64,000 nucleotides of DNA from the NCBI RefSeq assembly GCF_035084215.1, contig NC_090335.1, positions 47,988,001-48,052,000 of the forward strand. Direction: 5' to 3'. Of this stretch, positions 1,980 through 63,104 are shown piece after piece (positions within the stretch are counted from its first letter, which is position 1; every line of letters begins with the position of its first letter). The stretch comes from Heptranchias perlo (taxonomy: Eukaryota). The position numbers were made by a program, and so were the translations under genes. The notes under the pieces were generated by a model. It made no database searches and was not told the DNA's origin. It saw nothing but the letters and a program-made list of their open reading frames with translations.

Positions 1980-2707
1980 AGGCTGGATTTTGCTGTGAGC
2001 GGCGAACAAAAGCGCCAGCCCTTCATTAGGCTTGCACGGCAAGTTACTGTAAGTTAGAGACCCATTCAGCACGGCACCCTCTACAGGGCATCTAGGACCT
2101 GTGTGAACAGGACAAGCAACTGTGTGCCTCCTTAACCAATCAGATTGAAGAATCATTAATGAGCAGCAGAGAGACTGAACCAGGAAGTGCAAGTGAGAAT
2201 AGTAAATTCAATATCAAATCAGGTACAGAAAGCAAAATAAAGAGAAGGAAAGAAAGATTGGATTAAGAGACAGCAAGAAAAGGTAAGAACTTTTTAAAAA
2301 AAAAGAAATGTCCAACAATAATTAAAAGCTGAAGGAATGAGACTCCACACTTGTAAAAGTAAATTTTCAGTGCCAGAGAGGTTGTTTGGCAGTAATTAAG
2401 ACTTACCACACCATTAAAAGGGTACTTATACTGGAATGGACAAGCCCTAATTTTTTTTGGCGAGTTTAGTTTGTATCTATGAGGTAAGTACAGGAACTTC
2501 ACGTTGTCCAATGTATTTGAATGGTGAGTCAGACTGCGAGATGCCGTTTTCGCACAGCTTTTTGGAGGAGTAGGGCATCTCGGACAACTTCCAGATTTCC
2601 GCGTTTAACTGCGCATGTACGGTTGCTGGAAGTTACTGTCCGATTTGCACATAAATAACGGTGAGCGCTGTTATCCTCACCGTTATTTTTACAACAAAAT
2701 CCAGCCC
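1980..2707. mobile_element. Non-autonomous Harbinger-like element (MITE)
   Basis: TIRs (a/g)ggctggattttg ... caaaatccagccc; AAT on both flanks (3-bp TSD). Confidence 0.75.
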
Positions 2708-3044
2708 AATATGTAGGAAGTGCAGTAAGTACAAGGACTCAAGTATGTAAAAGTTTGGAGTAAAGAATTTACATGTTTTGATTCAAACAGAAGCAGATTT
2801 TAGATTTTAGAATTACATGTGATGTTCCAACCAGGTGCAGTGAGTCTGAAAGTTATACATGAGTGCTTTTTATGTTTCAGTGCTGACTTGATTTCAAACT
2901 TGTCAGTGCTGTTTTGGTTGATTTAAAATACTTTAATAGTGCAACTGAATGAAATGTGCCTTCAAAGCAGTATAGTCTATTAAAATGAATGAATTCTTAT
3001 TTAAATTTCTTTAAGAAGCATATGCTGCACCTTGTAATTGTCAG

Positions 3045-3477
3045 CCATTGCTCAGTGCTAGCACTCTTGCCTCCTGAGTCAGAAGGCTGTGGGTTCAAGT
3101 TCCACTCCAAAGACTAGAGCACAAAATCTAGAAGGAGATGCTGCACTGTCGGAGGTGCCATCTTTCGAATGAGACGTTAAAACGAGGTCCGTCTGCCCTC
3201 TCAGGTGGACGTAAAAGATCTCATGGCATTGTTCGAAGAATAGCAGGGGAGTTCTTCCTGGTGTCATTGCCAATATTTATCCCTCAACCAACTTCACCAA
3301 ACAAAACAGATTATCTGGTCATTATCACATTGCTGTTTGTGGGACCTTGCTCTGTGCAAATTGCCTGCCATGGTTCCTACATTACAATATTGACAACACT
3401 TCAAAAGTCCTTAATTGGCTGTGAAGCGCTTTGGGACGTCCTGAGGTCGTGAAAGGTGCTATATAAATGGAAGTCTT
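3045..3477 (+). mobile_element. tRNA-derived Deu-domain SINE (SacSINE1/AmnSINE1-like), full length
   Basis: A/B-box-like head (gctcagtg...ggttcaagt), Deu-like core (gcactgtcggaggtgcc..aggtggacgtaaaagatc) and tail gtgaaaggtgctatataaat. Partial copies at ~605-785, 3900-4130, 30480-30720(-) and 36290-36410. Confidence 0.8.
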
Positions 3478-30600: not shown

Positions 30601-33600
30601 GCAGTATCCCACAAAATGAGATGAATGACCAGATAATCTGTTTTTTGATCGTGTTGGTTGAGGAAGGAGCATCATTCAGGAGACTGGGAGTACTTGCTGC
30701 TGTTTGAATAATGCGAGTCCTTGAATCCACCCAACATTACATAACCAATCCTCAAGTATTCATGTGGACCATTTTAAACTTAAATACCAATTACATTTAT
30801 TATGTATGATAGGTCAGCCTAAATTGAGATTTAAATGGTGGGGAAAATACTGTTGAAGTTAAAATAACTTTGCAAAAGATTGCAAGAGAATGATTACACA
30901 ACAACCTGTATTTATATACTACCTTAACGTAGAAAAACGTTCTAAGGAAAAATGGACCCTGAGCCAAAGGAGAGATTAGGAGGAGTGACCAAAAGTTTGG
31001 TCAAAAAGGTAGGCTTTGCGGAGGTGGAGAGGCAGAGGAAATTCTAGAGCATAGCACCTAGATGGCTGAAGGCACAATTGCCAGTGGTAGGGTGAAGGGA
31101 GGGGGGGATATCCAAGAGGTTGGAGTCAGAGGAATGTGGAATTATAAGGCTGGAGAAGATTACACGGGTAGAGAGGGATGAGGCCATGGAGGGATTTAAA
31201 TGCAAGAATGAGAATTTTAAATTTGAGGTGTTGGATGACCAAGAGCCGATGTAGATCAGTGAGGACGGTGATGATAGGCTAGCGGGATTTCACCTGGGAC
31301 AAAATACAGGTATCAGAGTTTTGGATAAGCTGAAGTTTATGAAGGGTGGAGGGTGGGAGGCCGGCCAGGAGGGCATTGGGGTAATTGAATCTGGAGGTGA
31401 CAAAGGAATGTAAGGGATTTGGTGGAAGATGAGCTAGGGTAGGGATGAAAGTGGACACTGTTAGCGCTGGAAGCAAGTGGTCTTCATGATGGAGAGACTA
31501 TGGGGCTCGAAGCTTAGCTCAGGATCAAACATGTTGCCGAGGTTGCATACAGTCTGCTTCAGCCTAAGATGATGGTCAGGGAATGGGAGAGATTCTGTGG
31601 CAAGGGTTTGGAGTTTGTGGTGGGTGCTGGAGAAAATTACGGCTCATCCAAGATTGGATGCTGGACAAGGAGAGGCAATGGAGAGGTCGAGAGGTGGTGG
31701 CAGAGGTAGAGCTGGGTGTCATCAGTGTACTTGTGGAAGATGACCCTTATCTACAGATGATGGCAACATGTACTCAAGAAAGTGCGGCCAAGGTTAGATC
31801 CTTGGAGAAATTGGAGGTAACCGTGCAGGGATGGGAAGAGAAACCATTGCTCAACATGCTCAGGCTCCAGATATTAAATAAGGCACAATTTACTCTAAGC
31901 TTGTTGTAAGCTCAAGCATAAAGCCTTAAAGGATACATAGCTTATAAATTATTTCAGTCAATAAAATAAAGAACTAATGACTTGTTGAAGTTGCCAACTA
32001 TGGACCACAAATGTATCGGTTGAATAATTTGTTTTACATCAATTTTCTCTTTACATTCTGTTCCTATTATTGTCAGATCTCTGCACTATTAAAAGAACTA
32101 AAAGCAATAAGAAGTAGCCCGGAACCACAGAAAAGGTACATTTCCAAGAAGGCTTCATTTTTCAGGAAATGAATTAGATAATGGGAAGTTTTTTTTGCCA
32201 AGTATAATGAAAGCTGTGCATCTTTGTATTTTTCTATGAAGCACTATGGCTGTGGAAATGTTACTGAACATAGAGACCTGAAATTCCACACTGCAATTTG
32301 CATTAATAAATAGAGATTTAGGCCTGCCAGTACTCTGCAGAGCTGAATCGCTATAAAATGAAGGGTCAGCTCAATTAAATATCTACTGGTGGCTCTCGTG
32401 TAAGTGGAGAGCACTATGCTGGGGATTTTTGCAAATTAAGAGTGCAGCATTTAAAAAGCCAAGTCTGGCTAAAGATTGTAACAGCAGGCCACGGGGAGTA
32501 GCAGGTAAGTAGAAAAATGCTTGGCTCCCTGAGTTCATTGCCCATTAGCTGCATTCGATGGGGTAGGGAAATAGAAGGGGCAACCCTGACATTAAGAAGC
32601 TCACCCTCTATGGGGAACATGCATTGGAGCTGCTGGGGATGCATTCTCTGCTCCAGCTGTGTGGGATGGTGAAGGCGGTAGCCCATTGTTGGTACCAAAT
32701 TAGTGCAGCATATCTACCGTGTGATTTTTGTTCCATTTTTCAATAATGTCCCCAATAGAGGATCTGGCAAAGACAAGACAAAAAGGAACAAAAGAAGGGC
32801 ACAACATTTTATTGAGATGGACCTTCAAACCCTTCTGTGTTTCAGAAAAGGATAGAGAATCTGCTGAGTCCCAATGGGAGGGGAAAAAAAGTCATGTGGA
32901 GAGAGGCCAACTCTCTTGCCCCCAGAACTGCAGACCAGTGCTGCAAGAAATGCAATGGCTTGATAAGGGCAGGCAAGGTAACACACTGGCTGTTCTCTCT
33001 TCTTCCTGGGGTAGCAGCATGCTTTTCATCCTCTAAAATTAAGAGCAGCACAAATAACACTTCATGTTGGACTCTTGATTAAGGGGGGCACTAACTCAGA
33101 ATCTTACAATTTGTGTCCTCATCTCCCCTAGCAGCAATTGCCCATAGAATCTTAACCCCTCCCCCCCCCCCCCAATCACTTTACCACCGTGATATCAGCA
33201 GGTTCCCTATGACAGCTATCTAATGCCATCTTGGAAACAGCACTCAATTCTAATTCACTTTAACTTGTTTCAAGATAAAGTTGTACACAATGCCCAGAAG
33301 AGATGGGTGGCCACGGGGCATCCCCGACATGAAGGAGCTCACCCACTATGAGAAATAGGCCATGAAGCTGCTGGGGTGGCACTCTACTCTAGCTGTGAGA
33401 GATGGCTGGGCTGGTGGCATAGTGCCACCGCCACGTTTGCAGGTGCCCACTTACACGGGCATCTCTGAAGCAACAGAGAAGCGCAACCTTCCACATCCTT
33501 CTGTCTTTTTAAATCCGAGGGAGTTATGCTTACGCATTCTTTGCTTGTACTCCCCTTTCCAGTAGATCCAATGCAGCAATGGGGACAAATGATGAGAATG

Positions 33601-36600
33601 ATGATGAACAGAAAAGAAGAGAAATCATTCTTGTGGACTGTGAGGATGACTATGCTGAGGGGGGTAATAACGAGAGAGAGGATGTGATGGTCATGCTGTG
33701 CAGAAAAGTGCATCAGTCACCTGACATATGCATGGCCAATATTACACAGATTCCCACGTGCCTGCCTGAAATGACCTGGTGCCATAAACATTGAGTGCGG
33801 TTGTGACCTTTTTAGCCACAAACAGCTGCAGGGCAGATGACCATGCCTACAAGCCTTTATGCAGCTCTTCTATTGCCTCTTTGGTGACATGCATCCTTCA
33901 ATATGCATTCCCTCACTAAGGTATTCATAGGACCTATGTTACATATATATTTTTTGGGGGTGGGGGGAGGCAATATCTTGTAGGGTTCTTCCTCAAATGC
34001 TGCCTCACTCTTCTTTCCTACATCCTCTCCCTCTCCTCCTCCTTCATAATAATGGCATATATAGGTATGTTCATAGAGAATGGCATGTATGTTCCTGAGA
34101 AGCACTCCTTTGGTGGGAGAGGGAGGCAAAATATCAAGGTGGTCTTGCACTCCTACAGACGTGATGTGGAGATGCCGGTGATGGACTGGGGTTGACAATT
34201 GTAAACAATTTTACAACACCAAGTTATAGTCCAGCAATTTTATTTTAAATTCACAAGCTTTCGGAGATTTTCTCCTTCCTCAGGCAAATGTTTCAAGATC
34301 TCCTTGAAGCCTACGCATTTATACATATTGAACAATAAAACATGGTGTTTACAGACTGCCCCTGCAACTGCCCGTTGCCAAGGCAATCACCGTGTTCAGA
34401 CAGAGAGGTGTTACCTGCAGAACCTCCGAATACACATTCAACAAAAAAACAAACAGGGAAAAAAAACAGAGAGAAAAAAAAAACACAGAGAGAGGCAGAA
34501 ACATCCGGAAGGCAGAGAGAGCCAGCAAATGACCCATTATATTAAAAACAGATAACATTTGTTCGCTGGTGGGGTAACGTGTAGCGTGACATGAACCCAA
34601 GATCCCGGTTGAGGCCGTCCTCATGGGTGCGGAACTTGGCTATCAATTTCTGCTCGACAATTTTGCGTTGTCGTGTGTCTCGAAGGCCGCCTTGGAGTAC
34701 GCTTACCCGAAGGTCGGTGGATGAATGTCCATGACTGCTGAAGTGTTCCCCGACTGGGAGGGAACCCTCCTGTTTGGCGATTGTTGCGCGGTGTCCGTTC
34801 ATCCGTTGTCCGTTCATCCGGTGTCCGTTCATCCGTTCATGCAGACGCTGCGACAACGGATGAACGGACACCGCGCAACAATCGCCAAACAGGAGGGTTC
34901 CCTCCCAGTCGGGGAACACTTCAGCAGTCATGGACATTCATCCACCGACCTTCGGGTAAGCGTACTCCAAGGCGGCCTTCGAGACACACGACAACGCAAA
35001 ATTGTCGAGCAGAAATTGATAGCCAAGTTCCGCACCCATGAGGACGGCCTCAACCGGGATCTTGGGTTCATGTCACGCTACACGTTACCCCACCAGCGAA
35101 CAAATGTTATCTGTTTTTAATATAATGGGTCATTTGCTGGCTCTCTCTGCCTTCCGGATGTTTCTGCCTCTCTCTGTGTTTTTTTTTTCTCTCTGTTTTT
35201 TTTCCCTGTTTGTTTTTTTGTTGAATGTGTATTCGGAGGTTCTGCAGGTAACACCTCTCTGTCTGAACACGGTGATTGCCTTGGCAACGGGCAGTTGCAG
35301 GGGCAGTCTGTAAACACCATGTTTTATTGTTCAATATGTATAAATGCGTAGGCTTCAAGGAGATCTTGAAACATTTGCCTGAGGAAGGAGAAAATCTCCG
35401 AAAGCTTGTGAATTTAAAATAAAATTGCTGGACTATAACTTGGTGTTGTAAAATTGTTTACAACTCCTACAGACAGTCAGGAGCAAGTCCAAGACTCAAA
35501 GCTAGAAAAAACATCATTCCCAGCTGCAGTAATCACTACTCAAACTTTCAGCTGTCCTCAGCCTCAAGAGCTCCTCGCTTTCGCCAGTGTCAGCTGATCC
35601 TAGCAGCAGCTGTGCCTTTTTAAATTTGTTTTGGGGATTTAGGTGGCACTGACAAGGCCATGTTGTTGGCCATCCCTATTATGCCTGAGAAGGTGGTGGT
35701 GGGTCTTCTCCTGGAACTGTTGCAATCCTTGTGACTGTGGTGCTCCCACAAAGTGTTAAATAGGGAATTCTGGGATGTCAGGATAGCGTATCACTTGGAG
35801 GTGTTTCCACGACATTGCTGCTCTTCAAAAGCAAAATACTGCAGATGCTGGAAATCTGAAATAAAAACAGAAAATGCTGGAAAAGCTCAGCAAGAGAGGC
35901 AGCATCTCTGGAGAAACAGTGTTAACGTTTCAGGTCGAAGACCTTTCGTCAGACCTGGAAGATGTTAGAGTGCTGCTCTTGTCCTTCTCGTTGACAAGAG
36001 GTCGCAGGGGAGGGAGGTGCTGTTGAAGTAACCTTGGTGAGTTGCTGCAGTGCGTCCTGTGGATTATACATACTGCAGCCATATTGTGTTGGTAGTGAAG
36101 GGGGTGGATTTTGAGTCCAGTAACAGGGGCAGCAATCAACTGAACTGCTTTATCCTGGAAGGTGTCGAGCATCTTGTTGCCACACCCATACAGACAAGTG
36201 GTGAGTAGTGTATTACATTCCTGACTTGAGCTTTGTAAATGGTGAATAGGCTTTGAGAGTTATGGGGATGTGCTACTCATCACAGCAAATTGACTGTTGT
36301 GTTTGCCTATGTTACAAGAGTGACTATAATTCAGTGGTAATTCATTGGCTGTAAAGTGCTTAGGGGACATCCTGAGGACATAAAAGGAGCTATATAAAAT
36401 GCTCTTTTCTCATTCAATTCACTCACCAATATTTTCCATGTCTGCCAGTTTGATTGTGGTAGAATCAGTATCTGAATTGGACCTTTATGTATGCAACTAT
36501 TTGTATTATCTTGTGCTGTCTCTTTCACTTTCCCATTTTCAATAGTTTCTTAATGTACAAACAAATCAAATGTTGAGGCTGTGTTTACCATTTTGTTGTA

Positions 36601-39600
36601 TGTAACTATTGGTCATTTCTCTCTCAGTGTAATAATTTCTCAGTGGACCAGCATGCTGCGCGTGGTGGCAGGGCACTTGGATCGAATCAGCCTGACCTAT
36701 GTTACTTTGGATGGCTCTGTGACTCCTAAACATCGTATGGACTTGGTGGAGGAATTTAACACTAACCCTAAAGGACCTCAGGTACCAGCTGGCTGCTCTT
36801 TTGGGTTTTCTTTTGGGGGAGCAGACCTATAAAAGATCCACAGTTCCAGAATACTACGGGAGCTTTGTTTTCTTTCCAATTTTCTTCCTTGAAAGAGCTG
36901 ATGGGTGGTAAAGTACAATTGTTGGCATTCCTCTAGTAGCTTACAGATTTGTGGACTTTGAGTGAGGTTAGGCTGGGCTTAACTTTGGTGCATACACCTT
37001 CCCCTTAACCCCCCCCCCCCACCCCGGCAAGTAGCCTTCCAGTATTTACAGTCTAACCTCGCATAGAAAGAATGGATACTTGGGTGAAGTACTAGAACAC
37101 TGCTGGCACCCATGGGACCATACCCCAGCATCTTTGAGAGGAGGAAAGGAAAATCTTCACATTTTGCACAGTGGACAGTGGTTTGCATGCAGTGGTTTAT
37201 ATATCACAAATTTCAACAATGGGGCCCATTGCTAAAAATTTAATTTAAGTTCAGTCCGATGACCTGTTGGGAATTCTACTGAGAGAGTCAAATCGACTTT
37301 GTTAACTGTTTGTTATGTGCACTGATTATTTAAATATGGCTGTCATGTGTAGTTTCTATGACTTTGTTATCTTGGGCACACTTCCTTTCTAAATGCTTTC
37401 TCTCTTATCACAGGTCATGTTGGTCTCTCTGTGTGCTGGGGGTGTGGGTTTGAATCTCATTGGAGGCAACCACCTTTTCCTGTTAGATATGCACTGGTAA
37501 GATTAATGGTCAGCAGTAATGCAGATGGTCACAGACTATATTAAAATGTGATATTGGAAGGAAGGACACCTATTCCTTGCTGGAATGTTTGACAAATGCT
37601 GCTGAGCGGCTTTGGTTGCCTGCTATTCATTGAAGTAGCAAGCATTTTGAGCTTGACATATTAACACCTGTGATGTATTTGTATATTTGTTATATTTAAT
37701 GTAAGATTAGTTTTACACTGCTGCTTAGAAACAACTACCTGATTGCAAACATTTTAATCTCCTGTATTAATTCCTATTAATACCACAATACTTCAAATGT
37801 GTGCCTGGCAATTTTGGCATGATTTACAGAAGTCATTAGATATAAGCGACCAATTATTTGCATGTCTCAATTCAATCTGATTAGCATCCTCGATTAATGC
37901 ATTTCTTTAACATGTGCTTTTTAAAGATGGGACTTATGGAGCTGAATTTTACCTTCATTCATAGTAACCCTTCGGTTCTTGAATTGTTAAGGAATTTCTC
38001 CCTTTTTAAAATTTAATGAGTAATTAATTTCCTCCACTCGTTAGATTCTTCTGTTTACTCCAACTCATGCCCATTTCACGCACTGCTCCCTTAGATAAGA
38101 AGGCAGAAAGGTAACCTAGCTCCAGACCTCAACCAATGCTGCTCTGCTATCACATTAGAATCCTTTGTTGACTCTCTGAGTTTATTTGAAATGGTTTTTC
38201 CTACCTTTTTGGTAGTGAAGCCATCTCTGATCAGTGCTTGACTTCTCCCCCACCCACCCTGTTTCCCCATCCCATAGCTCAGCTGAGATTAGGGGTTCTC
38301 AGCCAGGGACCTATGTCCTAGCATTTCATCACAATTTGCTACCAGAGTAGCTTTAATTAACCAAATTCAATAATCTTATTAACAAAATTGATAGTTACCA
38401 ATTTGTATGACTGTTTAATGTATTGATAATGTGAATTGTTTATGAAGCCAACACTATTGGAACTGTGTATGCTTTCAATGTGTTTTATGCATCTTTTTGT
38501 CAAACTCCTTCACATTTCATTTGTCTCATGGTAGTACCTGCATGATATTTACAGGAGATGGTCACAGATTTGCTAGTTTGTCAGAAAAATAATGTCTTGA
38601 TGAATCTAAAACTGATATGGTATTAAAATTAATGGAGTCAACAAAATATATTGATTTATTGAATCCCTTCTGGACAGGTCAAACTCATGTATGCACTCAA
38701 TTGTGTTTTTAGGAATCCAGCACTGGAGGAGCAGGCATCTGATCGAATTTACCGTGTAGGGCAGCGCAAGAATGTCACTGTGCACAGGTAACTGAGAAGA
38801 CATCACACTAGAGATCCTGCATTCCCTTTCTGAGGGAGTGGAAATAAATGGGAAGGATAAATGAAAACCATTCAATCTAATTTTAATTTTGCATGACATT
38901 GATGCATTAGAAAATGAAATTCAGTACTAATTATGTTCAAACATACAGCTGCAATGCATTTGAATGAACCACCTGCTGGTTTATAAATCTGTCCTAGTAT
39001 ATATTGCAAACGGCTTCACAAATCAGGAAGTGGGACACCTGGCAGCCACTTCCATGACTACTCCGTGCTCCTAAAATTTCTCTTAGAGCAATTTCTCCTT
39101 AGTTTACCCGAGCTGCTGCTGCTTCTACTTTTACTGCTTAGAATTTAAACTTAAAAATGAAATAAAATAAAAACCTACATATATGCTCATTGTGCAATTT
39201 TTTTTTTTGCAAATATACTTTTTATATTCACATTAAATTTAGAATAGTGGGAGTCAGAGTAACAGCCAGATAAGTCAGGTGTGGGACGAAGAACAACTGA
39301 GGGGGAGGATGGCAGCAGTATGGACAGCAGGAACCTTGAGAATTCGGTTTGATACACCAGTTATAATGAAATCATTCTCTTTTTGAAAATTAGAATACTA
39401 ATTGAAGATGCATCTCTTGGATCAGTGAGTGCCACCAGCAGTAAAGCACTTTAGTATCTGCATTCTCAGTTCTTTTGAAAATGTTCATTTGAGTTCATGT
39501 ACAGAAAACCATCTACATCAGGGTGTAAGGCCTTGTTGAAAAGGACAGTGTGTGTTTCAGGTCAGGCTCATAATCTGCAGTCCCTGAAAATACAGCATTC

Positions 39601-45153: not shown

Positions 45154-47040
45154 TCAGCAGAGCAGTCCTTCCTTGAATCGAACTGTAGCACACAGCAACT
45201 TATTTATATCTAATAAAGTGTGTTTATCAATTTTACCTACTGTGCGTGATCCGAATATTGTGCCTTTTCCATTTATGCATAAAACATTTATATTTGGCAT
45301 TCCACTAGTTGGATGTGGATTAACAGTAACTGGGAGTAGCGAACTGTGGGATTTATCCCCTTTTTGTAAACAACTTACCTCCGCTGTGACTGATCTTTTT
45401 CCTCACTGAGCCGAGGACTGTAACGTGTTGTACCTGACAGGTGACGACCGTTCCCCGGTCCAAGTGAGTGTCTCTAATCCACAGCCGGGAGCTCAGGTTG
45501 TAGGTGCCGTCACTGTTTACAGTCGGGGAGCCCTGTTCTGTTTGATAGGAGACATTTCCCGCTACAATCCAAGAAATGTTCAGATCTCTCGGGAAAAATC
45601 CCACAGCCACACAAATCAGAGTCTGAATCCCAGCAACTTCATTCTCTGGATCCGCAGAGAGATAGACTTGAGGTTCCGCTAAATAAACACATCAAAATAA
45701 CTTAAATTACAACAATCTGAGTTATAGCAAATATATAAAGAACTGTGTAAAATATTTAAATTTATGCATTTTTGATATTAAATGGGAAACTGCAGAATCA
45801 ATTTGATTAGATTGTGTCTCAATATACAAATCACCAGATACATATAATAAAATATAACACACATGTAACAATGAAAAACGGGCCAGAATAATATCCCGTG
45901 ACTTCACAATAAGTTTCTTTCGGGCACAAATTCCGTTTGTTTTCCTTTGGATCAATATCGTCAAGAAAACTGAAATAAATTGACAATACTTAGTTCACAA
46001 AATCCGTTTTGCTATTTGTAATTCGCTTCTTACATAAATAATATTCAGCCGTTAATATTGGTGTCAGCATTCTACAGTTTTGTCTCTTGGCTGTTTTTCT
46101 TCAAACGAAGTTTTAAAACTATATGAAAGTCCCTGCTGTTGAATGGTTATTGTGGAATTAAAGCTAAACGCTGGTGTATTCAGCCTAGCTCCCAGTGCAC
46201 AGAACATGTCAGTCCCAGATTAGATGTGTGTGCGGCTATTTCTGTTTCCTTTGCCCCATATATTGAATTATTTCAGTTTTAGTTAATCTAATTACCATGG
46301 ATCAAAAGCAAAATACCGCGGATGTTGGAAGTCTGAAATAAAGACAGGAAATGCTGGAAACACTCAGCGGGTCAGGCAGTATTTGTGGAGAGAGAAACCG
46401 GATTAACGTTTCAGGTCCATGACCTTAGAAACTTAAATCTCTCAATTCTTCCAGTTCTGATGAATGGTCATCGACCTGAAACGTTAACTCTGGTTCTCTC
46501 TTCACAGATGCTGCTTTACCTATTGAGCGTTTCCAACATTTTCTGTTTTTATTTCATAATTACCTTGGATGTTCAGTTCTGTTTCTTCTCCTGTAAAGGT
46601 TCTCCCGGGTCGAGGCGTCTCTTTAAGAACCAGGCAGTGGTAAGTATCTGAATCTTTCACAATCACCTCCCGAATGACAAGCGAACCCTCAGACACAGAC
46701 ACGCGAGAGCTTTGATTGAGGAAATTCTTAGTTTCGTTGCCTCTGATGCCAGGATTGTCTCTTGTTCTATACCAGTAATATCTCACCGAATCCACCTGCT
46801 CCTCTCCGGGTAACAGGGTGCAGTTGATCCGAGCTGTCTGTCCTCTCAGGAGGGACAGAGCTGAAGGAGACTGGATCACTTTCAGACCGACAGCAGGCCC
46901 TGGGACATAAAATTACAAGTAGGAACATAAAATCAAAATGATCTGAGTACAACTAGAATAAATGTTAACTGGGGTAAAAGAGAACGCTTACCTAATACAA
47001 GGAGCCAAAGTTTGAGAACAATGATTCTAAATGGACCCAT
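45154..47040 (-). CDS. Non-rearranging VJ-C1 immunoglobulin-superfamily gene, copy A (antigen-receptor-like, NKp30/PRARP-like), ~246 aa
   Basis: Leader 47040-46992 (MGPFRIIVLKLWLLVL|gtaagc). V exon 46899-46564 (VIQSP..INC..YYWYR..DSDTYHC..RTFTGEETELNIQ|gtaatt). C1 exon 45678-45379 (TLICVAVGFFPRDLNISW..NSDGTYNLSSRL..VTCQVQH|gtaagt). All introns are phase 1. The tail exon 45209-45154 (DINKLLCATVRFKEGLLC*) is less certain. Confidence 0.85.
46305..46557. mobile_element. Inverted-repeat Penelope-derived element with hammerhead in the V-C1 intron (copy B at ~55579-55831)
   Basis: Two inverted arms; + strand gtt-CUGAUGA-atggtc.atc.gacct-GAAA-cg-UU-aac at 46454-46488 and 55728-55762. Confidence 0.7.
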
Positions 47041-54433: not shown

Positions 54434-56308
54434 CCTTCCTTGAATCGAACTGTAGCACACAGCAACTTATTTATATCTAATAAAGTGTGTTTATCAATTT
54501 TACCTACTGTGCGTGATCCGAATACTTACTATTGTGCCTTTTCCATTTATGCATAAAACATTTATATTTGGCATTCCACTAGTTGGATATGGATTAACAG
54601 TACCTGGGAGTAGCGATCTGTGGGATTTATCCCCTTTTTGTAAACAACTTACCTCCGCTGTGACTGATCTTTTTCCTCACTGAGCCGAGGACTGTAACGT
54701 GTTGTACCTGACAGGTGACGACCGTTCCCCGGTCCCAGTGAGTGTCTCTAATCCACAGCCGGGAGCTCAGGTTGTAGGTGCCGTCACTGTTTACAGTCGG
54801 GGAGCCCTGTTCTGTTTGATAGGAGACATTTCCCTCTACAATCCAAGAAATGTTCAGATCTCTCGGGAAAAATCCCACAGCCACACAAATAAGAGTCTGA
54901 ATCCCAGCAACTTCATTCTCTGGATCCGCAGAGAGATAGAATTCAGGTTCCGCTAAATAAACACATCAAAATAACTTAAATTATAACAATCTGAGTTATA
55001 GCAAATATATAAAGAACTGTGTAAAATATTTAAATTTATGCATATTTGATACTAAATGGGAAACTGCAGAATCAATTTGATTAGATTGTGTCTCAATATA
55101 CAAATCACCAGATACATATAATAAAATATAACACACATGTAACAATGAAAAACGGGCCAGAATAATATCCCGTGACTTCACAATAAGTTTCTTTCGGGCA
55201 CAAATTCCGTTTATTTTTCTTTGGATCAATATCGTCAAGAAAACTGAAATAAATTGACAATACTTAGTTCACAAAATCCGTTTTGCTATTTGTAATTCGC
55301 TTCTTACATAAATAATATTCAGCCGTTAATATTGGTGTCAGCATTCTACAGTTTTGTCTTTTGGCTGTTTTTCTTCCGTCGAAGTTTTAAAACTATATGA
55401 AAGTCCCTGCTGTTGAATGGTTATTGTGGAATTAAAGCTAAACGCTGGTGTATTCAGCCTAGCTCCCAGTGCACAGAACATGTCAGTCCCAGATTAGATG
55501 TGTGTGCGGCTATTTCTGTTTCCTTTGCCCCATATATTGAATTATTTCAGTTTTATTTAATCTAATTACCATGGATCAAAAGCAAAATACCGCGGATGTT
55601 GGAAGTCTGAAATAAAGACAGGAAATGCTGGAAACACTCAGCGGGTCAGGCAGTATTTGTGGAGAGAGAAACCGGATTAACGTTTCAGGTCCATGACCTT
55701 AGAAACTTAAATCTCTCAATTCTTCCAGTTCTGATGAATGGTCATCGACCTGAAACGTTAACTCTGGTTCTCTCTTCACAGATGCTGCTTTACCTATTGA
55801 GCGTTTCCAACATTTTCTGTTTTTATTTCATAATTACCTTGGATGTTCAGTTCTGTTTCTTCTCCTGTAAAGGTTCTCCCGGGTCGAGGCGTCTCTTTAA
55901 GAACCAGGCAGTGGTAAGTATCTGAATCTTCCACAGTCACCTCCCGAATGACAAGCGAACCCTCAGACACGCGAGAGCTTTGATTGAGGAAATTCTTAGT
56001 TTCGTTGCCTCTGATGCCAGGATTGTCTCTTGTTCTGTACCAGTAATATCTCACCGAATCCACCCGCTCCTCTCCGGGTAACAGGGTGCAGTTGATCCGA
56101 GCTGTCTGTCCTCTCAGGAGGGACAGAGCTGAAGGAGACTGGATCACTTTCAGACCGACAGCAGGCCCTGGGACATAAAATTACAAGTAGGAACATAAAA
56201 TCAAAATGATCTGAGTACAACTAGAATAAATGTTAACTGGGGTAAAAAAGAACGCTTACCTAATACAAGGAGCCAAAGTTTGAGAACAATGATTCTAAAT
56301 GGACCCAT
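54421..56308 (-). CDS. Non-rearranging VJ-C1 IgSF gene, copy B (tandem duplicate with its 3' end fused to a CR1 LINE), ~244 aa
   Basis: Leader 56308-56260, V 56167-55838 (6 nt shorter than copy A), C1 54952-54653. Putative tail 54476-54421 (DINKLLCATVRFKEGQRI*), whose last codons come from the LINE. Confidence 0.8.
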
Positions 56309-62719: not shown

Positions 62720-63104
62720 TGTGCTACACTAATGTCACGCTACACGTAACCCCACCAGCGAAAAAAAGTTATCTGTTTTTAATACAATGGGTCATTCTCT
62801 GTCTTTCTCTTCCTTTCGGATGTTTCTCTCTATCTCTCGGTCTGTCTTTTGTTCTGGCCGTTTGTGTATTCGGTGGTCCTGTAGGTAACATCTCTCTGTC
62901 TGAACACTTTGATTGCCTTGACAACGGGCAGTTGGAAAGATTATCTGTAATCACCAGGTATTGTTCTCTGACTATAAATGCGGTAACCTTCCATGGAATC
63001 CGAATCCCACACTCACCTGACGAAGGAGAAAGCCTCCGAAAGCTTGTGATTTTCAAATAAAACAGTTGGACTATAATCTGGCGTTGTAAGATTCCTTACA
63101 TTAA
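62720..63104 (+). mobile_element. Penelope pLTR fragment nested in CR1 ORF1
   Basis: Homologous to 35070-35455; TSD tccttaaaat at 62710-62719 and 63105-63114. Confidence 0.85.
63013..63049 (+). ncRNA. Minimal hammerhead ribozyme (Penelope pLTR)
   Basis: tcac-CUGACGA-aggag.aaagc.ctcc-GAAA-gc-UU-gtga, with a Watson-Crick stem I (tcac/gtga). Confidence 0.8.

What the first reader, a model, noticed from the sequence alone, without database searches (positions are those of the whole stretch)
34149..35474. Apparently perfect 612-bp-arm Penelope palindrome inside TTF2 intron 19
Seen: I found no mismatch between arms 34199-34810 and 34852-35463, even in homopolymer runs; the mirror-image ORFs in the track agree. 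The spacer is 41 nt, the TSD is 12 bp (actcctacagac), and only the left arm has an extra 38-nt terminal extension (34161-34198). Established: Penelope-like elements often insert with an inverted pLTR. Inference: a very recent insertion from an active family. TTF2 pre-mRNA would fold into ~600 bp of dsRNA (substrate for ADAR, Dicer or dsRNA sensors), and the DNA could extrude a cruciform.
Basis: partly seen in the sequence, partly recalled or inferred. Interest (0 to 1): 0.7.

Follow-up and report, generated by a model that had tools for sequence, protein, structure and literature searches.

The report
Young Penelope palindrome in shark intron
This perfect mirror-image repeat in a shark gene's intron is a real insertion of a Penelope-like jumping gene, missing from another copy of the locus and so likely very recent; it has the usual landing shape of its family and is ordinary, though its sister copies suggest that both cut DNA ends likely copy one RNA.

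Summary
In detail: 612-bp arms without a mismatch and a 12-bp target duplication, in TTF2 intron 19. Sequencing contigs of one sample show both the filled left junction and the empty site, so the insertion is likely heterozygous and very young. It is two head-to-head 3' fragments of a Neptune/Nematis-type Penelope-like element: endonuclease end, hammerhead motif, and a 37-nt tail on one arm. Intact 902-aa copies exist, and 12,673 places match its end exactly. The shape is the family's normal one: 61 of 80 sampled ends have an inverted partner, and 21 of 44 long young palindromes have identical arms, up to 2.5 kb. The '41-nt spacer' is 14 nt of element plus a 27-nt stutter of templated snippets. 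Across copies one arm has the tail and the other not, both arms share the source allele (43 of 43), and either may be the longer (18 vs 16). This fits both cut strands priming on one RNA better than fold-back. The architecture is published; earlier notes of this scan, in this genome and others, already propose the same mechanism. Editing, small RNAs, cruciform formation and any effect on TTF2 are untested.

The parts
32077..32135 (+). TTF2 exon 19 (upstream of the insertion)
   Evidence: P0001 residues 1044-1062 tile here; AG before and GT after
34149..34160 (+). left copy of the 12-bp target site duplication
   Evidence: a single copy in the empty allele of run X4
34161..34161 (.). one extra base, in neither the element nor the empty site
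   Evidence: sister copies match 649 of 650 query bases; overlap -1
34162..34198 (-). 37-nt tail; in full copies it ends at the A of the ORF start codon (unit 3050-3086)
34199..34810 (-). tail-bearing arm: 3' fragment of the element, unit 2440-3049, antisense to TTF2
   Evidence: 99.5% to the L031 unit; identical to L002 over 649 nt
34248..34290 (-). mirror copy of the minimal hammerhead motif
   Evidence: core at 34283 on the minus strand
34811..34837 (.). 27-nt junction filler: snippets of the neighbouring element sequence, read as three backward slips, then a 3-nt microhomology join (decoding inferred)
   Evidence: second longest filler among 44 long young palindromes
34838..35463 (+). tail-less copy, unit 2426-3049 (626 nt), sense to TTF2; last base shared with the duplication
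34839..35120 (+). C-terminal 93 codons of the GIY-YIG endonuclease, cut just after the YIG motif; cannot encode a working enzyme (inferred)
   Evidence: no Pfam hit for the fragment
35372..35414 (+). minimal type I hammerhead motif: helix I, CUGAnGA core, extra base, helix II, GAAA, palindromic helix III; predicted cut after 35407
   Evidence: 18 variants: 94.9% of cells paired, 4 of 11 pairs with two-sided change; layout as in PMC4209133; no Rfam hit
35463..35474 (+). right copy of the 12-bp target site duplication
36628..36781 (+). TTF2 exon 20 (downstream of the insertion)

Best explanation
This is one insertion of a Penelope-like retroelement, two head-to-head 3' fragments inside a 12-bp duplication and absent from another copy of the locus, likely made when both free ends of one staggered DNA cut primed reverse transcription on the same RNA at two start sites about 37 nt apart. 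Shown: the anatomy, the empty allele, the young family with intact RT plus endonuclease copies, and the rules that sister copies follow. Inferred: the endonuclease cut both strands 12 nt apart; one 3' end primed at the tail end (unit 3086) and the other at the short site (unit 3049); both copies stopped in the endonuclease region 14 nt apart; one end slipped back three times on a short internal repeat and then joined the other through 3 matching bases; host repair filled in the second strands. The insert is likely a passenger: it would fold into about 610 bp of double-stranded RNA in TTF2 pre-mRNA from this allele, like many others in this genome, and no selected function is proposed.
For: Identity and youth. 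One tail end plus one short end in 79 of 81 inverted pairs that passed the filter in 138 loci, and in all 44 long ones. Duplication 12-14 bp in 49 of 53. Both arms carry the same allele at the family polymorphism at unit 2909 in 43 of 43 (24 T/T, 19 A/A); about half would be mixed if the arms were drawn from the pool. The tail arm reaches further 5' by more than 15 nt in 18 of 43, the short arm in 16 of 43, and a short arm longer than the tail arm cannot be a fold-back copy of it. 5' ends lie within 15 nt of each other in 9 of 43, window included, against 0.6 expected and a maximum of 5 in 20,000 permutations. Each end also occurs alone with its own duplication: 4 of 10 single short-ended and 5 of 9 single tail-ended copies. 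In vitro a lizard relative extends both target strands, starts at two adjacent internal sites that bound the tail, and is predicted to be a dimer (PMC11167929, parts 1-3 of 4 read).
Against: Shared alleles show one source, not one RNA molecule: fold-back or later gene conversion between arms gives them too. Two loci have arms that differ at a non-CpG-flagged variant also seen elsewhere: L042 at unit 1063, and L149 at 2591, where the C allele forms a CpG and may simply have decayed. The near-equal cases lean only weakly the way a leading and a trailing enzyme predict (6 short arm longer, 2 tail arm longer, 1 equal). The filler reads as three backward slips in either polarity, so it does not say which strand made it. 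Only 1 of 17 private variants shared by both arms is A>G, so my sample gives no RNA-editing barcode. The in vitro data are from another clade (Poseidon), with start sites inside the ORF rather than at its start. The central junction was not seen in read data.
Confidence: 0.6

Rival explanations
1. Fold-back (self-priming): one DNA copy, or an antisense RNA, folds on itself, is copied into a hairpin, and the endonuclease trims and inserts it, leaving the tail on one side.
For: Proposed in print for these elements (PMC3846280, passages read; 'EN-mediated resolution' in PMC8557442, passages read). It explains shared alleles and the excess of near-zero loops, such as L050 with both arms from unit 1505.
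Against: The unpaired 5' part sits on either arm about equally (18 vs 16 of 43), which needs a trim of either polarity; short-ended single copies have their own duplication (4 of 10); loops of hundreds to thousands of bases are common.
Confidence: 0.2
2. Two primers but two templates from one source: two units of one tandem transcript, or two RNAs of one locus, are copied from the two cut ends.
For: Tandem sources exist (L031, L033). In L042 the tail arm stops about 65 nt before the place where the other arm would start in a tandem RNA, and the arms differ at two sites.
Against: It does not by itself explain why 9 of 43 pairs stop within 15 nt of each other, nor the almost strict one-tail, one-short rule (79 of 81).
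Confidence: 0.15
3. The palindrome, or its perfect identity, is an assembly or polishing artefact.
For: No listed contig covers the central or right junction; three of the DNA runs may be the source of the assembly.
Against: Different flanks on each side, a duplication that matches the empty allele exactly, the left junction in X1-X3 and X6, and the same shape at 61 of 80 sampled ends.
Confidence: 0.03
4. The insert has a regulatory effect on TTF2: the long RNA hairpin is edited or diced, or alters splicing or 3' end formation of this allele.
For: Predicted 612-bp duplex; a guessed-RNA run holds the filled junction (X6 record 28); a pyrimidine-rich AG at 34283 and AATAAA at 34334 and 35418 lie in the insert.
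Against: It lies 2.0 kb from exon 19 and 1.15 kb from exon 20; those signals would be paired inside the duplex; palindromes with arms of 500 bp or more stand at 8 of 80 sampled ends; no allele-resolved data were available.
Confidence: 0.1

Closest known systems
Canonical insertion form of endonuclease-bearing Penelope-like elements (Craig et al. 2021, PMC8557442, passages read; Arkhipova et al. 2013, PMC3846280, passages read)
   Same: 5'-truncated copy with an adjacent inverted copy, 30-40-bp tail at one end only, target duplication, hammerhead motif in the pLTR. In Adineta Pen2a: 31-bp tail, 9-bp duplication.
   Different: Here both halves are short stumps reaching into the endonuclease gene and no full ORF lies between them; the duplication is 12 bp; the junction has a 27-nt templated filler.
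Neptune/Nematis clades of Penelope-like elements (features from PMC8557442)
   Same: [quoted passage not shown]
   Different: No tree against named reference elements was built, so Neptune versus Nematis is not settled.
Poseidon_Ac of Anolis carolinensis, in vitro (Frangieh et al. 2024, PMC11167929; parts 1-3 of 4 read, supplements not read)
   Same: Two adjacent start sites bounding the tail; both strands cut and extended; hammerhead motif; predicted dimer.
   Different: Its start sites lie inside the ORF (main site 111-118 nt in); here the tail ends at the start codon. The text read does not link the two sites to inverted insertions.
LINE-1 twin priming (recalled; not read here)
   Same: A second target end primes on the same RNA and gives a 5' inversion inside one duplication.
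   Different: L1 twin priming gives non-overlapping inverted parts; here both parts start at the 3' end and overlap almost wholly, giving a palindrome.
Minimal type I hammerheads of metazoan Penelope-like elements (Cervera and de la Pena 2014, PMC4209133, passages read)
   Same: Extra base before helix II, G10.1-C11.1 pair, palindromic helix III.
   Different: Cleavage not tested; the two copies face opposite ways, so a transcript of either strand carries only one sense copy, paired with its complement.

Membership tests
Endonuclease-bearing Penelope-like element | Single ORF with RT and C-terminal GIY-YIG nuclease in full-length copies | tested here: met
   902-aa ORF in L031, L032, L033, L042; RVT_1 E 3e-10; nuclease by motif only, no Pfam hit
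Endonuclease-bearing Penelope-like element | [quoted passage not shown] | tested here: met
   motif at residue 790 has both cysteines; histidines follow downstream; feature as in PMC8557442
Endonuclease-bearing Penelope-like element | Tandem or partial-tandem copies forming pLTRs | tested here: met
   3,086-nt tandem units preceded by a partial unit in L031
Endonuclease-bearing Penelope-like element | Inverted 5'-truncated copy, 30-40-nt tail on one end, target duplication | tested here: met
Endonuclease-bearing Penelope-like element | Hammerhead motif in the pLTR | tested here: met
   core and helices by pattern and covariation; Rfam gave no hammerhead hit and the folding z-score is 0.07
Endonuclease-bearing Penelope-like element | RT groups with PLE/telomerase RTs in a tree | not tested
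   no named reference sequences were fetched; a DKG motif is present at residue 296
Neptune/Nematis clades | CX2-5CxxC linker between RT and nuclease | tested here: met
   CX4CX2C at residue 753
Neptune clade (versus Nematis) | Phylogenetic placement of the RT | not tested
   no tree built
Currently active family | Intact ORFs, near-identical copies, presence/absence polymorphism | tested here: met
   transposition itself not observed
Functional dsRNA/editing substrate | A-to-I changes or small RNAs assignable to this locus | not testable with these tools
   only contigs were available and arm sequence is shared with thousands of copies
Fold-back DNA transposon (MITE) | Terminal inverted repeats of a cut-and-paste element with fixed ends and no retroelement origin | tested here: not met
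   arms are variably 5'-truncated RT-element sequence with unequal outer ends

The most novel reading that the evidence does not exclude
Penelope-like elements integrate by two-ended priming on one RNA: a dimer cuts the target 12 nt apart, both 3' ends start reverse transcription 37 nt apart on the same molecule, and the one-sided tail is the spacing of the two active sites. This insertion would record the trailing enzyme stalling 14 nt behind the leading one and stuttering on a short template before the two copies were joined.
Probability: 0.45. Interest if true: 0.6.

Novelty: new member of a known kind. Interest (0 to 1): 0.3.

Why it matters
The locus itself is an ordinary young, likely polymorphic insertion, useful as a presence/absence marker and as an allele-specific test of what a 600-bp intronic hairpin does to a shark transcript. 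The family matters more: how Penelope-like elements make their inverted copies and one-sided tail is called unresolved in PMC8557442 (passages read), and thousands of near-identical copies in one genome give counts that separate the models. My searches found no paper proposing two-ended priming on one RNA, but the library lacks most subscription papers and older reviews (PMC522041 not held), and earlier notes of this scan already state the idea.

Tried and rejected
Rfam scan: only hairpin-shaped microRNA look-alikes far below their thresholds, no hammerhead. Folding z-scores of the hammerhead region (0.07) and of the 3' end with tail (-1.63) are not significant. Pfam did not recognise the nuclease fragment or domain. 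PDB sequence searches with exon 20 and with the 902-aa ORF gave nothing. The protein atlas gave no result for either sequence. Laying DNA contigs over the arms was swamped by other copies, so the central and right junctions and any editing could not be read. The self-repeat filter missed palindromes with short spacers, the window's own included; replaced. BLAST missed 4 of 80 anchors; the k-mer chaining recovered them. Copies of a roughly 96% subfamily appear to stop at unit 2964 or 2982 only because they differ from the reference unit there, so short copies were left out of the 5'-end tests. The RNA-editing barcode lead from earlier notes was checked: 1 of 17 private shared variants is A>G, in a sample chosen for near identity. 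A search for work on intronic palindromes and editing in sharks gave nothing relevant. MITE origin and assembly fold-back were considered and rejected (see rivals and membership).

Full report
OBSERVATION. The inverted repeat is exact: 34199-34810 and 34852-35463, 612 nt, no mismatch, 41 nt apart, the longest of 41 inverted pairs in the window. The host is TTF2 on the + strand: the downstream exon is 100% identical over 51 aa to a shark TTF2 (P0001), and nearly all of the 120 listed hits (of 346) are named TTF2. Tiling P0001 on the window gives 22 blocks from residue 10 onwards; the insertion lies between blocks 18 and 19, that is in intron 19 (32136-36627) if residues 1-9 form one more exon.

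REAL AND POLYMORPHIC. Nine runs hold part of the left flank; eight carry the same sample code S1, and three may be the source of the assembly. All are contigs, not raw reads. X1-X3 each have a contig from the flank into the tail, to 34185. X4 has a 697-nt contig that joins 34148 directly to 35463, with a single copy of the duplication. Among the guessed-RNA runs, X5 shows the empty site and X6 shows both the filled junction (record 28) and the empty site (record 29). The simplest reading is a heterozygous insertion in S1; a sample code that covers several animals, or mosaicism, is not excluded. X5 also holds a contig spliced from 32977 to the exon at 36628, which suggests that it is RNA. The central and right junctions were not among the listed contigs and rest on the assembly.

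WHAT IT IS. A search of the genome with the tail-bearing arm gave 40 places at 99-100% over its whole length, and an exact 98-nt pattern of its end has 12,673 matches against 0 for the control. Tandem copies give a 3,086-nt unit with a 902-aa ORF: RT (Pfam RVT_1, E 3e-10), a CX4CX2C linker, and a GIY-YIG nuclease with two cysteines inside the core. By the features in PMC8557442 (passages read) this is a Neptune/Nematis-type Penelope-like element; no tree was built. In unit coordinates the left copy is 2440-3086 on the minus strand and the right copy 2426-3049 on the plus strand. The 37-nt tail ends at the A of the start codon, and base 34161 is extra. Each arm carries a minimal hammerhead motif laid out as in PMC4209133 (passages read). 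Over 18 variants 94.9% of cells pair and 4 of 11 pairs change on both sides, above all 500 shuffles, although relatedness alone can give that; Rfam and folding energy do not detect it.

THE SPACER. Fourteen of the 41 nt belong to the right copy. The other 27 (34811-34837) are snippets of the adjacent element sequence, which holds a short internal repeat; they read as three backward slips and a 3-nt microhomology join (decoding inferred, and valid in either polarity). Among 44 long young palindromes most junctions lie between a 5-nt overlap and a 6-nt filler; only three have longer fillers (17, 27, 53 nt).

HOW COMMON. I fetched 80 loci from the first 100 listed matches on contig C1, merging neighbours and skipping three repeats of a duplicated block. 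61 of 80 have an inverted partner arm, 57 of them with a duplication of 10 bp or more, and 8 of 80 have arms of 500 bp or more (in a few loci the script took a neighbouring end as anchor). Scaled to 12,673 ends this is roughly a thousand long palindromes, a rough extrapolation. Of 44 long young palindromes, 21 have identical arms over their whole overlap upstream of unit 3030, up to 2,496 nt. Arms differ at 25 substitutions in 58,030 overlapping bases. A perfect 612-bp pair is therefore the expected state of a young copy.

MECHANISM. 138 loci were mapped on the unit: the window, 18 and 14 loci, 80 and 25. Inverted pairs were kept if both arms were close to the unit, both outer ends lay at or beyond unit 3038 and both flanks were inside the fetched stretch; 81 passed, and pairs failing these rules were dropped. 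79 of 81 have one tail end and one short end; most loci were found by a tail-bearing query, so the informative part is that the partner is short. Duplications are 12-14 bp in 49 of 53. Among 43 pairs with both arms reaching upstream of unit 2900: both arms share the allele at the common polymorphism 2909 in 43 (24 T/T, 19 A/A); the tail arm is longer by more than 15 nt in 18, the short arm in 16; and 9, the window included, stop within 15 nt of each other against 0.6 by permutation. Single-arm copies end at either site with their own duplication: 4 of 10 short-ended, 5 of 9 tail-ended (L148 dropped as a palindrome with a 788-nt filler, the L142 match judged spurious). A fold-back of the first DNA copy cannot give a short arm longer than the tail arm, nor a tail from a short-ended template, without a further trimming step of either polarity. 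Two primers on one RNA account for all five rules and agree with the in vitro behaviour of a lizard element: both strands extended, two start sites bounding the tail, predicted dimer (PMC11167929, parts 1-3 of 4 read; supplements not read and may bear on this). Against: shared alleles cannot separate one RNA from one cDNA or later conversion; L042 and L149 have arms that differ at variants seen elsewhere, one of them a possible CpG decay; the near-equal pairs lean only 6 to 2; and only 1 of 17 private shared variants is A>G. The published alternative is self-priming, perhaps on antisense RNA (PMC3846280, passages read).

CONSEQUENCES FOR TTF2. The transcript of the filled allele is predicted to fold into a 612-bp duplex, and X6 holds the filled junction. 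Editing, small RNAs and allele-specific effects could not be tested. A DNA cruciform is less likely than for an unspaced palindrome: in yeast, breaks at Alu inverted repeats fell about 80% at a 9-bp spacer (PMC8053094, passages read); how that transfers to a 612-bp, 41-nt-spaced repeat in a shark is inference.

NOVELTY. The architecture is in print (PMC8557442, PMC3846280). Searches found no paper stating the two-primer reading, within a library that lacks most subscription papers; of 10.64898/2026.07.22.740005 I saw only a term search, and of the other listed papers only titles and abstract starts. I had noted the two-primer idea before the look-ups showed 282 earlier notes in at least 34 genomes on this architecture, several with the same mechanism and several from this genome. 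These are unchecked AI notes and not independent support. Verdict: a real, young, ordinary member of a known kind; interest 0.3.

Noticed in passing
window 62732-63100: Older copy (75% identical) of the 3' end of the same family, with its own hammerhead core at 63017.
   Followed up: no
window 46280-46640 and 55550-55910; fragment at 35820-35990: Short imperfect palindromes of another repeat family with hammerhead-like cores (46457, 55731, minus strand 35952). The first two are near-identical and lie in what looks like a local duplication of about 45478-46648 and 54752-55922.
   Followed up: no
window 32977 to 36628: A contig of run X5 splices a cryptic donor inside intron 19 to exon 20; the upstream piece has stops in the TTF2 frame.
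   Followed up: partly
L034 (G000:C29:44970000-44979900, near the contig end): A 3,144-nt tandem repeat in which each unit holds the same palindromic insertion beside TTAGGG repeats, plus a different hammerhead-like motif.
   Followed up: no
L052-L129 (contig C1): Most tail-bearing ends belong to miniature palindromes with arms of about 70-130 nt whose 5' ends fall at unit 2932-2988, upstream of the predicted ribozyme cut.
   Followed up: partly
L071, L088, L114 junctions: Nested small palindromes and repeated snippets at the centre of miniature insertions.
   Followed up: no
L148:3137-3924: A long palindromic insertion with 788 nt of non-element DNA between its arms; source not traced.
   Followed up: no
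L041, L050, L152, L157, L158, L161: Palindromes with arms of 1.0-1.9 kb and almost no unpaired centre (5' ends within 0-13 nt); these are better candidates for DNA hairpin fragility than this locus.
   Followed up: no
L079 and L143: Two separate insertions have the same 12-bp duplication, which resembles the tail end; possibly the same target inside a repeat.
   Followed up: no
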